Part shown: piece by piece, positions 16,301-19,300 of the stretch
How positions within the stretch are numbered: the first letter of the stretch is position 1
Layout of the letters: the number at the start of each line of letters is the position of its first letter
Source of the DNA: a virus
Taxonomy: Duplodnaviria > Heunggongvirae > Uroviricota > Caudoviricetes
Length of the DNA stretch: 20,872 nt
Reading direction: 5' to 3' (one strand)
Virus record (IMG/VR): IMGVR_UViG_2526164630_000021
Position numbers: made by a program

Positions 16301-19300
16301 GTGATGATACGCAGACGACGGTAGGCCGGGTCGTTCAGCTGAGCCGGATCTTCACCGGGAAGACGCTCAACCGCCTGCTGGTAATTAAATTCGTGTTTCG
16401 GCTTGACGTAGCCCGGACGTAACACGCGGGTTTCACCACCACGATGACGCAGCACTTTTCCTTCAACAACCGGGGAAACATAGGCCGCCACCGGCGTTTT
16501 TCCGGTAATTTTGTCCAGCATCACCTCTTCGGTATGGAAATTCACCGTACGGCGGAAAAACAGCTCCAGAAACAGCGCACGAAATTTCACTTTTTGTTCG
16601 GTATAACCGAGTAACTGGCGGGTCGTAAACAATCCCATAAATCAGTTCCTTTCATTCAGAAATCAGTCAGGCCACCGCGGTGGCCTGATAACGTGTTACG
16701 GCAGCGCCGCGTGACTCAGGGCACTGCCGGCAAAGGCGTTGGCCTTTTTGTGTTCATCCACACTGTCAGGCCAGCGGATTGCCTCCGTCGCAAAGGTCCC
16801 CGACTTGTAATACGTCAGTACCGTCTCTGTGCCTTCAAGCGGCAGTACCAGTATGCCAACCGCACTACCGGCTTTCTGTCCGTCCCAGACCACCAGTTTC
16901 CCGGTAGCTTCATCCAGCATCAGGGGCGTCAGTGCCGGTGTTGCCGAGGAAATCCCGCTGCTGCCTGTGGCGGTATGAGCCGGATCATTACCGGCAAAAA
17001 TACGTACTTCCGCACGCTGTTCAGTGATGGTTTTCGTTACCATATTGTAAAAACCTCCTGTTGATGGTCAGCACTGACTTCATGGCATGGCCATGAGCAT
17101 TTTCACATCCGCATCACCGTCTGCTGACGTCTGTGGCACGCCACCCTGTACCGCTGCCGGTGAATGGTTCGCCATGATGCGTTCAAACAGGGCGGTTGTG
17201 GATGCAGAGACCGGTTCTGCCTTACCTGATCCCGCAGCCAGCACAGCCCGGGCGCTCTCCACAGTCATTCCCGGGCAGGCAGCCAGCTGTTCAGCCTGCG
17301 CCTCAGCCCCTTTTGCCTCATCCAGTGCCATGATCTGATCACGGAGTGAGGGTCCGGCATCCGCCTGCGGTGAAGCAGCCAGGATCGGGCGGGCTTTTTC
17401 CACCGTCATCTCCGGCATCGCCGCCAGCGTTGCCGCCAGTTGTTCACGACCGTTCGCTTCTTCACACGCCATAATGCGATCGGCTTCACTCTGCGTGGAT
17501 GCCACCGGCTGCTGCGGTGCCGCCGCGGCCAGAATCGCCCGGGCCTGTTCAACGCTCATGCCCTGTTGTCCTGCCAGCATCGTGGCAAGCTGTTCACGTC
17601 CTTTCGCTTCCTGGCATGTCAGGATCCCCATCACTCTCTGGTTCTCCTGCGCGGCGGCTTCCGTTGCAGTTAATTGCGGCATAGTGCCTCCTCTGACATT
17701 ACTGTTCAGCGCCGTGGCCATCACACTGATGGCATCCGACGCATTGATTAATTCATCCGCCAGCCCGGCCTCAATGCCGGACTGACCTTCAAAAACGGCG
17801 GCCTCTGTTCCCGTGACGGCATCAACAGACAGACCGGTATACATCGCCACTTTTTCAGCAAACATCCGGCGCGCCGCATCAATGCGCTGTTGCATGTCCT
17901 GGCGAACCTCTGCCGGCAACGCTTCAAACTGATTGCCATCCACCTTGTGCGCCCCTGAGTAAATCAGCGTGATATCAACACCGGCCTGCGCCAGATGACC
18001 GGCATAGCTGACATGGCTCATCATCACGCCAATGGAGCCGATACGGGATGTCTGGGTAACCAGCCGTCGGGAGCAGGCCGACGCCAGCAGCATGGCTGCA
18101 GAGCAGGCCGTGTCATTGCACAGTGCCCAGACCGGCTTCTGCTGACGGAGGCGGTAAATCATGTCAGCGCAGTCAAACGCGCCGGCGGCCTGCCCGCCCG
18201 GACTGTCAATGTCCAGCAGTATGCCCCGCACCTGGCTATCTGCCATTGCCTGCTGAAGACAGGCGACAATACCGTCATAGCCTGTCATTCCGGAAAATGG
18301 CCGCATACCCCCCAGCCGGTGCACCAGCGTGCCGGTCACCGGCAGTACAGCAATACCGTTCACCACCCTGTAAACACGGGCCGGTCGTTTACCTCCGGCC
18401 ATGTACTCGTCCGTTTCAGCCAGCATTCCGGGAGCATCAAACTGTACCTGCTGTTGTGGTACCGAAAGACTTGATGCCCCCATCTCGCGCCCGAGCGCGC
18501 AAAAGAAAACCCGCGCATAGGCGGGCTCCAGAAGCAGCGGTTCATTGAATGCTGCGGCAATAATGTGTGAAAGATTACGTCTCACGTGGTGTTGTCTCCT
18601 CTTCCGGCCTGCGACTCTCCGCTATCTGCTGCTGATACGCCTGCGCTATCCACACCGGACGTGAGAGTCCGGCTTTTTGTCGCTCAGCAGATTCCCTGAC
18701 CTGCTGGCGGAAAATGTCCTGATAATCCTCGCCCATCAGCGCCAGCTCTTTCTCATACGTGCTCAGTCCGGCCTCAATGCGCATCACTGATTCCTGGACT
18801 TCCTTGAGCCCGTCAATGGCCATTCTTCCGGCACCAATCCACTCAGCCCGTGACCAGGCTGATCGCGCCAGATAAAAATCAAAACGCGCCCGTGGCGGAC
18901 GGATAATCCCCCGAAGAAGTGCCTCTTCCAGCCAGCAGGAAAACATCTGCGTGGCCAGCCGGGACGCAATAAATTTTCGTCGTCCCATAAAATAGCGCCA
19001 CGACTCATTGGCGGAGGCGCGGGCACTTGAATAACTGACCTTCGAGTAATCCCGGGACAACTGTTCGTAGGAAACGCCAAGACCGGCGGCGATATACCGC
19101 AGCAGCGCCTGTTCAAGCGCCGAAAATCCATTGTCTGAATCCTGCGCAGTCTGCAGTTTCAGATCATCACCGGGGAAAAGGTGCGGAATTTTGACACCGC
19201 CCAGCGTCACGTTATTCGTGTCATACCAGCTGGAGAACTTCTCCAGAATATTAATAAGCGGATTATCCTTCTGCCCCTGCGGCGCACCGGCGATATATTC

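What the first reader, a model, noticed from the sequence alone, without database searches (positions are those of the whole stretch)
17176..17631. Triplicated roughly 50-aa repeat in the scaffold region of protein C
Three consecutive in-frame units begin with Met and share (E/D)EA.G.EQLA...GMTVE.AR.ILAA. This makes C 501 aa, against 439 aa for lambda C as I recall it. Each unit could in principle start an internal Nu3-like scaffold product, and repeat number could affect scaffold stoichiometry or be unstable by recombination. The comparison with lambda is from memory.
Basis: partly seen in the sequence, partly recalled or inferred. Interest (0 to 1): 0.4.

Follow-up and report, generated by a model that had tools for sequence, protein, structure and literature searches.

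The report
Triplicated scaffold module, phage 21 type
The head protease/scaffold gene of this phage-21-like prophage really does carry three diverged copies of a ~50-residue helical module that lambda has only once, but GenBank has annotated this since the early 1990s as the phage 21 "Tri boxes", it sits in about a third of complete E. coli genomes, and it is neither unstable nor a set of separate start sites.

Summary
Window 17080..18585 (-) encodes a 501-aa protein with an S49 protease domain and a C-terminal scaffold region. Residues 313-465 form three tandem units of 47-53 aa. Pairwise scores are 12-15 SD above shuffles.

Lambda C (439 aa) has one unit. The gene is 98.5% identical in DNA to phage 21 gene 5/6, and GenBank M81255 already marks the units as "Tri1 box", "Tri box" and "Tri3 box" (function unknown).

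- **Internal starts:** only one internal start has a strong ribosome-binding site. It is M302 (ATG at 17682, GAGGAGG 4 nt upstream), ahead of all three units. It is conserved in Trabulsiella, Providencia and lambda. The Mets that open units 2 and 3 have no such site.
- **Instability:** the units are 57-65% identical in DNA, with identical runs of at most 9 nt. All 85 related loci have exactly three units, and 1864 of 5426 complete E. coli genomes carry the region at 80% or more of its length.
- **Variants:** rare 2-unit and partly deleted forms exist. A separate 4-unit lineage (538 aa) is in about 105 genomes.

Most likely role (inferred): a multivalent, beads-on-a-string core of the Nu3-type scaffold. 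Already known; low interest.

The parts
17080..18585 (-). Gene for the 501-aa head maturation protease with a C-terminal scaffold region (lambda C / phage 21 gene 5 homologue); GTG start at 18585
   Evidence: ORF. Pfam Peptidase_S49 at aa 146-293, E 3.7e-35. SppA structures 3rst/4kwb match aa 77-290, E 3e-16. 98.5% nt identity to phage 21 gene 5. 59% aa identity to lambda C.
17707..18150 (-). S49 (SppA-like) serine protease domain, aa 146-293
   Evidence: Pfam PF01343; NCBIfam SppA_dom; PDB SppA alignment.
17687..17693 (-). Internal Shine-Dalgarno GAGGAGG, 4 nt upstream of the ATG of M302
   Evidence: Best anti-SD duplex in the whole gene, -12.0 kcal/mol. Annotated as a putative RBS of gene 6 in M81255 and OL657228. 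Conserved in distant homologues and in lambda.
17080..17682 (-). Nested in-frame gene for the 200-aa scaffolding protein (phage 21 gene 6 / lambda Nu3 equivalent), from M302 to the shared stop
   Evidence: Annotation of the 98.5%-identical phage 21 records. RBS scan. phrog_8399 'head scaffolding protein' matches it in 3 stretches. This exact 200-aa sequence is called as a gene on 95 contigs. Expression was not tested here.
17491..17649 (-). Repeat unit 1 (aa 313-365); covers the phage 21 'Tri1 box' (my conversion: about window 17512-17615); orthologue of lambda's single unit
   Evidence: Clusters with lambda's unit in the NJ tree of units.
17350..17490 (-). Repeat unit 2 (aa 366-412); covers the phage 21 'Tri box' (my conversion: about window 17365-17475)
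   Evidence: Partly deleted (19 aa) in an otherwise intact natural variant.
17191..17349 (-). Repeat unit 3 (aa 413-465); covers the phage 21 'Tri3 box' (my conversion: about window 17221-17334)
17083..17190 (-). C-terminal tail (aa 466-501). It opens with a fourth, partial copy of the first helix of the unit (LFERIMAN) and ends in the conserved hydrophobic ...KMLMAMP
   Evidence: 'RIMA' recurs at M471. The tail aligns with lambda's DRLMQ...LLNTPV. AF2 predicts helices at gp6 residues 160-172 and 191-196.

Best explanation
The segment encodes three tandem, anciently diverged copies of the ~45-50-aa helical core module of the lambda-type (Nu3) head scaffold. It lies in the C-terminal region shared by two nested, in-frame products: the 501-aa S49 prohead protease (lambda C / phage 21 gp5) and a 200-aa scaffolding protein that starts at a single strong internal ribosome-binding site at M302 (phage 21 gp6 / lambda Nu3). 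It is the same feature as the 'Tri1/Tri/Tri3 boxes' annotated in phage 21. SHOWN: the repeat, its register, the single unit in lambda, one strong and conserved internal SD+ATG upstream of unit 1, near-identity to phage 21, and a three-unit architecture held from E. coli to Providencia. INFERRED: each unit folds as a small three-helix bead joined to the next by a flexible linker. The beads give the scaffold (and the protease that shares them) several equivalent contacts with the inner face of the major capsid protein and/or with other scaffold molecules. That would co-target protease and scaffold into the procapsid, where the protease later removes them. On this reading phage 21-type heads use a trivalent 200-aa scaffold and lambda a monovalent 131-aa one with a longer linker, for capsids that I expect to be similar. 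My confidence in the identity and architecture is about 0.95. My confidence in the multivalent-contact mechanism is about 0.4. The single confidence figure given for this explanation (0.8) weights the identity and architecture, which are the main claim.
For: Repeat significance: Z 12-15 and 16 invariant columns. Identity with phage 21 and its Tri-box annotation. Lambda has one unit. Single strong internal RBS at M302, conserved across lineages including lambda 5342. Gene context portal - C - decoration - major capsid - FI. The unit is a widespread module: 481 cluster representatives at E<=1e-3, and those listed mostly hold one copy near the C-terminus of 400-550-aa proteins. It is part of PHROG 'head scaffolding protein' and 'head maturation protease' profiles. 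Three units in 85/85 loci down to 62% identity. Identical residues between units use the same codon in only 8-9 of 19-21 cases, so these are old duplicates with protein sequence conserved. AF2: three short helices per unit at pLDDT 70-80, linkers below 60, pTM 0.27, which I read as independent beads. Yeast two-hybrid work on lambda reports Nu3-E, Nu3-Nu3 and Nu3-C interactions (PMC3224144). Portal and major capsid proteins match lambda's in length and are 61% identical.
Against: No experiment maps any interaction to the unit. The Nu3-E/Nu3-Nu3 data are for whole lambda Nu3. The AF2 model has modest confidence and rests on 18 sequences. It has no significant structural neighbour in the PDB, and the unit has no relative by sequence there. 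An established natural variant lacks helices b/c of unit 2 in an intact reading frame (P0011 stands for 53 member sequences). So three complete units may not be strictly required, although whether that prophage is viable is unknown. Lambda Nu3 is described in a paper title as 'intrinsically disordered' (Medina et al. 2011, seen only in a reference list), which sits uneasily with folded beads. Use of the internal start rests on sequence and on the annotation marked 'putative' in M81255.
Confidence: 0.8

Rival explanations
1. Staggered starts: each unit begins with a Met that starts its own shorter scaffold product, giving a nested family of Nu3-like proteins with 3, 2 and 1 units.
For: Each unit has an in-frame ATG at the same repeat position: M319, M372, M419, and also M471. 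M319 has a weak GGAG upstream, -7.4 kcal/mol.
Against: M372 and M419 score -2.4 and +0.5 kcal/mol, which is no SD at all. The GGAG before M319 is about 12 nt from the ATG, which I judge too far. M302 scores -12.0 and is the only internal site conserved in distant homologues. The Met sits inside the conserved 'RIM/QIM' helix and is Leu in many homologues (ILAC, ILAL), so it is a structural residue and not a conserved start.
Confidence: 0.04
2. Recombination-prone tandem repeat: the three units behave like a VNTR whose copy number changes often and tunes the scaffold from strain to strain.
For: Copy-number variants exist in nature. There is a 2-unit in-register U1/U2 fusion (P0020), other 2-unit forms (P0021, P0016), partial-unit deletions (P0009, P0011, P0010, L089), and a 4-unit 538-aa lineage in about 105 complete genomes whose units form a DNA-level 138-bp repeat of 3.7 copies at 78% match. 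Independent 2-unit duplications occur in unrelated lineages (P0143, P0173).
Against: In the window TRF finds no DNA repeat. Unit cores are 57-65% identical and share runs of at most 9 nt, which from general knowledge is well below what RecA-dependent exchange needs. 85/85 related loci have 3 units. 1864 of 1870 E. coli genomes with the region cover at least 80% of it, and nearly all listed hits span the same 621 bp. Units cluster by position across species and not by genome, so there is no concerted evolution in this lineage.
Confidence: 0.07
3. Passive filler or spacer: the extra units have no specific contacts. They add scaffold mass or length inside the procapsid and make up for the 36-aa linker that lambda has and this phage lacks.
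For: Lambda has a 36-aa low-complexity insert just before its unit that is missing here. An established variant lacks half of unit 2. Linkers are predicted to be flexible.
Against: Unit sequence is conserved residue by residue across units and from E. coli to Providencia (16 invariant columns among units; 39 invariant columns across 18 homologues), while synonymous sites have diverged. Pure spacers rarely behave this way. The linkers, by contrast, vary freely in length and sequence.
Confidence: 0.15
4. Helix-hairpin-helix-like DNA-contact modules: helices b and c of each unit (LA..PGMTVE.AR.ILAA) form an HhH-type motif that touches incoming DNA and helps the scaffold leave.
For: Weak Pfam HHH (PF00633) hit on unit 3, aa 427-450.
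Against: E = 0.093 and 13.1 bits against a gathering score of 24. Only one of the three units hits. There is no significant PDB match by sequence or by fold. From memory, the canonical G-h-G hairpin is absent; the units have P-G-M/P-E-M instead.
Confidence: 0.03

Closest known systems
Phage 21 genes 5 and 6 (GenBank M81255.1 'Bacteriophage 21 head gene operon'; complete genome OL657228.1), with annotated repeat_regions 'Tri1 box', 'Tri box', 'Tri3 box'
   Same: 98.5% nt identity over all 1506 bases and 99% aa identity. The three units are in the same places, the internal RBS and ATG for gene 6 are the same, and so are the neighbours (portal upstream, shp/decoration and major capsid downstream).
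   Different: A handful of substitutions only, for example A373V, L475M and R478H/I479F in the tail. The window copy is a chromosomal prophage whose tail genes look damaged.
Lambda C / Nu3 (J02459: C 4418-5737, 439 aa)
   Same: Same gene position, S49 protease domain (62% identity over the N-terminal 300 aa), nested in-frame scaffold product, the same core module, and the same kind of C-terminal tail. An SD+ATG at the homologous position, lambda 5342.
   Different: Lambda has one unit, not three, and a 36-aa linker ahead of it that is absent here. J02459 starts Nu3 at 5132 (201 aa); that Met is Ile in the window.
Four-unit E. coli prophage form (WP_096934546.1, 538 aa; L091)
   Same: Same gene family and context, same internal SD+ATG before unit 1, same tail.
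   Different: It has four units. Units 2-4 are close to each other and form a detectable 138-bp DNA tandem repeat, so this is a more recent, lineage-specific expansion. It is in about 105 of 5426 complete genomes, against 1870 for the three-unit form.
Nested protease/scaffold gene pairs in general (herpesvirus UL26/UL26.5, phage Mu I/Z, P2 gpO) and the C-terminal helix-turn-helix coat-binding domain of the P22 scaffolding protein (from memory, not tested here)
   Same: Works alike in outline: a protease and an abundant scaffold share a C-terminal region that carries both into the procapsid, and a small helical element near the C-terminus contacts the coat protein.
   Different: No sequence or fold relationship was found. 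As far as I recall, none of these has a tandem triplication of the module.

Membership tests
Lambda C/Nu3-type head protease-scaffold nested gene | N-terminal S49 (SppA-like) serine peptidase domain | tested here: met
   PF01343 E 3.7e-35, 121.6 bits against a cut-off of 24.9. SppA structures E 3e-16. The Ser of the C-S-A motif (S162) aligns with a Ser in the SppA A-A-S-G motif in that alignment; that this is the catalytic Ser is from memory.
Lambda C/Nu3-type head protease-scaffold nested gene | Position between the portal gene and the decoration and major capsid genes of a lambda-like late operon | tested here: met
   Order on the minus strand: W-size 68-aa ORF, 530-aa portal-size ORF (both sized and 50-61% identical to lambda W/B), C, HDPD decoration protein, 342-aa major-capsid homologue, FI.
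Lambda C/Nu3-type head protease-scaffold nested gene | In-frame internal translation start that yields a separate scaffolding protein sharing the C-terminus | tested here: inconclusive
   The sequence signal is strong and conserved: SD -12.0 kcal/mol at M302, also present in Trabulsiella, Providencia and lambda. It is annotated in phage 21. Whether the product is actually made cannot be tested with these tools.
Lambda C/Nu3-type head protease-scaffold nested gene | Conserved Nu3 core module (..R.MGIL.C.EA.GRE..A..LA...GM.V..AR.ILAAAPQ) followed by a short tail | tested here: met
   Unit 1 aligns with lambda's unit. phrog_8399 'head scaffolding protein' E 8.5e-36 with 3 stretches.
Phage 21 'Tri box' triplication | Three tandem units at the positions annotated in M81255 (gene 6) | tested here: met
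   Converted by hand, the Tri1/Tri/Tri3 boxes (M81255 5542-5645, 5682-5792, 5823-5936) correspond to aa about 324-358, 371-407 and 418-455 of the 99%-identical window protein, inside my units 1-3.
Unstable tandem DNA repeat (VNTR or contingency-type) | DNA-level tandem repeat similar enough for slippage or homologous exchange | tested here: not met
   TRF gives 0 rows at min score 30. Longest identical runs are 8-9 nt and core nt identity is 57-65%.
Unstable tandem DNA repeat (VNTR or contingency-type) | Frequent copy-number differences among close relatives | tested here: not met
   85/85 loci have 3 units. 1864/1870 genomes cover at least 80% of the region. Variants are rare.
Helix-hairpin-helix motif (PF00633) | Profile match above the Pfam gathering score | tested here: not met
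   13.1 bits against 24, E 0.093, one unit only.

The most novel reading that the evidence does not exclude
The number of Nu3 core modules (1 in lambda and in most listed relatives, 3 in phage 21-type heads, 4 in another E. coli prophage lineage, 2 in independent distant lineages) is a selected 'valency dial'. On this reading the module is the actual coat-protein (or portal) binding element, and its copy number sets how many scaffold molecules are needed per procapsid and how the protease is dosed. If so, the natural 1-, 2-, 3- and 4-unit series would be a ready-made experimental system for scaffold stoichiometry in T=7 heads.
Probability: 0.25. Interest if true: 0.4.

Novelty: already known. 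Interest (0 to 1): 0.15.

Why it matters
It matters little as a discovery. The triplication has been a named feature of phage 21 gene 6 in GenBank for about three decades, and this window is a near-identical copy of a prophage type found in roughly a third of complete E. coli genomes. Three modest points come out of the check. First, the function of the module is still annotated as unknown, although it is widespread among phage protease-scaffold proteins (481 cluster representatives). Second, natural heads with 1, 2, 3 and 4 units exist alongside homologous portal and capsid proteins, which could be used to study scaffold valency. Third, the conserved internal SD+ATG just upstream of the first unit suggests where the scaffold product starts, including in lambda, where the classic record places Nu3 210 nt further upstream.

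Tried and rejected
- **DNA-level repeat detection.** TRF found nothing and the repeat finder found only short boxes. The repeat shows in protein only.
- **PDB sequence search with the unit profile**. Only a chance hit at E 0.78.
- **Foldseek of the AF2 model against the PDB**. Nothing at E <= 0.001, as expected for a model with pTM 0.27.
- **Pfam HHH hit**. Below threshold, so rejected.
- **NCBIfam on the 200-aa scaffold part**. No family.
- **Literature searches**. The library holds neither the phage 21 head-gene sequence paper nor the lambda gpC/gpNu3 biochemical papers. Look-ups of PMC4424060, PMID 20620152 and PMC3247018 failed. One guessed PMC id was an unrelated paper, and PMC5314882 was irrelevant. 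Prior knowledge of the triplication therefore rests on the GenBank feature table, not on a paper I could read.
- **The search for homologous proteins**. It returned mostly partial proteins from short contigs, which served for finding variants but not for a census.
- **CII-binding-site patterns** that OL657228 annotates inside the gene. Both are present in the window (17430-17443 and 17664-17677, + strand), but the window total of 2 is below the chance expectation of 3.9, so I rejected them as meaningful.
- **Chance or compositional artefact** (Ala-rich sequence). Rejected by the shuffle test and by position-specific conservation across species.
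Full report
**1. What is there**

The window is the late (head and tail) operon of a lambda-like prophage, read on the minus strand. In that reading order it runs: the end of a large ORF, then a 68-aa ORF and a 530-aa ORF that match lambda W and the lambda B portal in size and at 50-61% identity. Next comes the 501-aa ORF at 17080..18585, then a decoration protein (Pfam HDPD), a 342-aa major capsid homologue and FI. Tail genes follow, and the operon ends with J and lom.

The 501-aa protein has an S49 (SppA-like) peptidase domain at residues 146-293 (Pfam E 3.7e-35; SppA crystal structures E 3e-16). A C-terminal third follows with no Pfam family.

**2.

I phased the units as residues 313-365, 366-412 and 413-465.
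- Their pairwise local BLOSUM62 scores are 101, 87 and 97. Sequence shuffles average about 26 (sd about 5), so Z is 12-15 and none of 1000 shuffles reaches the observed value.
- The 36-residue tail does not repeat the unit, except for a fourth 'ERIMA' at its start.

At the DNA level the repeat is almost invisible. Tandem Repeats Finder reports nothing. The unit cores are 57-65% identical, and the longest shared runs are 8-9 nt. Residues that are identical between units use the same codon in only 8-9 of 19-21 cases. These are old duplicates that have been held together at the protein level.

**3. Comparison with lambda**

Lambda C is 439 aa and aligns with the window protein at 59% identity. 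It contains exactly one unit, which aligns with unit 1. It also has a 36-aa linker ahead of that unit that the window lacks. Lambda's tail ('DRLMQ...LLNTPV') corresponds to the window's tail ('ERIMA...MLMAMP').

**4. It is already annotated**

The gene is 98.5% identical in DNA to gene 5 of phage 21 (M81255.1 and OL657228.1) and to about a dozen other sequenced coliphages. Converted by hand to the 99%-identical window protein, they fall at residues about 324-358, 371-407 and 418-455. I could not retrieve the accompanying paper from the held library, so the claim of prior knowledge rests on the database record.

**5. Where the scaffold product starts**

I scored every in-frame ATG, GTG and TTG in the gene for pairing of its upstream 17 nt with the 16S rRNA 3' end.
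- The gene's own GTG scores -9.1 kcal/mol.
- The best site in the whole gene is internal: M302 (ATG at 17682-17680), preceded by GAGGAGG (17693-17687) with a 4-nt spacer, at -12.0. It is the start annotated for phage 21 gene 6, and it lies 11 residues upstream of unit 1.
- The unit-initial Mets score -7.4 (M319, where the GGAG is about 12 nt away), -2.4 (M372) and +0.5 (M419).

The SD+ATG at the M302 position is conserved across lineages: Trabulsiella (-12.0), E. coli and E. albertii species representatives (-10.3), the four-unit E. coli lineage (-8.8), Providencia (-5.8) and lambda at 5342 (-10.8). In many homologues the unit 'Met' is Leu. The idea that each unit launches its own product is therefore not supported. 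The sequence argues for one 200-aa scaffold protein that carries all three units, nested in the 501-aa protease.

**6. Distribution and stability**

*The module in general.* A profile of the three units, searched against 1.84 billion cluster representatives, finds 481 proteins at E <= 1e-3. Most of the 150 listed have one copy. It lies typically tens of residues (in some over 100) from the C-terminus of 400-550-aa proteins, or in 100-200-aa proteins. PHROG families named 'head scaffolding protein' and 'head maturation protease' contain it. It is thus a common module of phage protease-scaffold proteins, normally single.

*The three-unit form.*
- It occurs in all 85 related loci I could fetch: the species representatives of E. 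coli, Shigella flexneri, E. albertii, Trabulsiella guamensis and Providencia alcalifaciens (down to 62% identity), plus 80 IMG/VR contigs.
- Salmonella proteins also have it.
- The 621-bp repeat region is in 1870 of 5426 complete E. coli genomes (2922 places). 1864 of those genomes cover at least 80% of it, and nearly all listed hits span the same 621 bp.

*History of the units.* I built a neighbour-joining tree of the units; they are short and there is no bootstrap, so it is only suggestive. Every unit 1 groups with lambda's single unit. Units 2 and 3 mostly group by position across E. coli and Salmonella. This points to an old triplication and not to concerted evolution.

*Variants.*
- A two-unit protein formed by an in-register U1/U2 fusion (P0020).
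- Other two-unit forms (P0021, P0016).
- Partial-unit deletions (P0009, P0010, P0011).
- An intact 482-aa gene in a complete genome with a 19-aa in-frame loss in unit 2 (L089).
- A separate 538-aa, four-unit form in about 105 complete E. coli genomes. Its units are detectable as a 138-bp DNA tandem repeat (3.7 copies, 78% match) and its units 2-4 are each other's closest relatives.
- Independent two-unit duplications in unrelated lineages (P0143, P0173).

Copy number has changed several times in evolution, but in this lineage it is stable.

**7. Structure**

AlphaFold2 was run on the 200-aa product with 18 homologues. It gives three short helices per unit at pLDDT 70-80. The linkers score below 60, there are further helices in the tail, and pTM is 0.27. 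I read this as confident local modules without a fixed mutual arrangement, that is beads on a string. Neither a sequence profile nor Foldseek finds a solved relative. A sub-threshold Pfam HHH hit on unit 3 is not evidence.

**8. How it most likely works**

Established knowledge of lambda-type heads, partly from memory: the protease C and the scaffold Nu3 share a C-terminal region, enter the procapsid with the portal and the major capsid protein, and are removed by proteolysis before DNA is packaged. Two-hybrid data report Nu3-E, Nu3-Nu3 and Nu3-C contacts (PMC3224144).

Given the anatomy above, I think it most likely that each unit is an independent small helical contact module for the capsid protein and/or for scaffold self-association. 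The phage 21-type scaffold would then be trivalent where lambda's is monovalent.

Portal and capsid proteins are 61% identical to lambda's and match them in length. I therefore expect a similar capsid and a difference in valency or stoichiometry instead. This step is inference, and I give it about 0.4.

The main rival is that the extra units are mere filler (0.15). The residue-level conservation of the units, set against freely varying linkers, argues against it. The staggered-start, VNTR and HhH readings are each below 0.1.

**9. Verdict**

The feature is already known and is very common, so interest is low (0.15). The module's function is still not established, and the natural 1-to-4-unit series could be used to test it.

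Noticed in passing
L001 (lambda J02459) 2633 vs 2843, i.e. lambda 5132 vs 5342; window 17682: J02459 starts Nu3 at 5132 (201 aa, SD score -6.9). The ATG at 5342 has a much stronger SD (-10.8), is homologous to the window's M302 start, and would give 131 aa, the length of the PHROG 'head scaffolding protein' profile. The Met at lambda 5132 is Ile in the window. Gene callers have called the 131-aa form on 165 contigs and the 201-aa form on 6. From memory, later lambda work treats Nu3 as about 13 kDa; I could not check that here.
   Followed up: partly
L091 (E. coli STEC309, NZ_CP041435.1) 927-2543; repeat at 1910-2418: A 538-aa C homologue with four units, in about 105 of 5426 complete E. coli genomes. 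Its units form a DNA-level 138-bp tandem repeat (3.7 copies, 78% match), so this is a more recent expansion than the one in the window.
   Followed up: yes
L089 (E. coli WP8-S17-ESBL-08, NZ_AP022221.1) 316-1764: An intact 482-aa C homologue with a 19-aa in-frame deletion that removes helices b and c of unit 2 (LAATLAAMPEMTVEKARPI), flanked by 'LAA' microhomology. The same allele is a protein cluster with 53 member sequences (P0011).
   Followed up: partly
window 801..5639 (-): The tail-tip gene J appears broken. The N-terminal part (4101..5639, FNIII-A_GpJ and Phage-tail_3) and the middle part (2593..4212, Ig_J and Phage_Tail_Tip) overlap in different frames, which suggests a frameshift near 4101-4212. 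The C-terminal receptor-binding domain (801..1304, Ig_GpJ_C) is separated from the rest by a transposase ORF with an rve integrase core and an HTH_21 domain at 1355..2242. The prophage is probably defective for tails.
   Followed up: partly
window 7016..8020 (-) and 8251..8610 (+): An insert sits between the ORFs at the tail L and K positions: a P22-type antirepressor (P22_AR_N and P22_AR_C domains) and a divergently oriented Arc-like ribbon-helix-helix protein. As far as I recall, lambda has no genes at this position.
   Followed up: no
window 17430-17443 and 17664-17677 (+): The only two matches to TTGYNNNNNNTTGY in the window lie antisense inside this gene, at the sites OL657228 annotates as 'CII binding site'. 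The total count (2) is below the chance expectation (3.9, sd 2.1), so there is no evidence that they mean anything.
   Followed up: yes
window 135..734 (-): A full-length Ail/Lom outer-membrane protein gene lies at the end of the tail region, as in lambda (Pfam E 2.1e-117).
   Followed up: no
window 17687-17693 and homologous sites in L004, L006, L007, L001: In most lineages checked, the internal Shine-Dalgarno sequence is written into a conserved Gly-Gly (GGA GGC/GGG) of the protease-scaffold linker (RGGT, TGGT, ERGGT, SGGR). The conservation of those two residues may reflect the RBS and not the protein. Providencia and the four-unit form use other residues with a weaker SD.
   Followed up: partly
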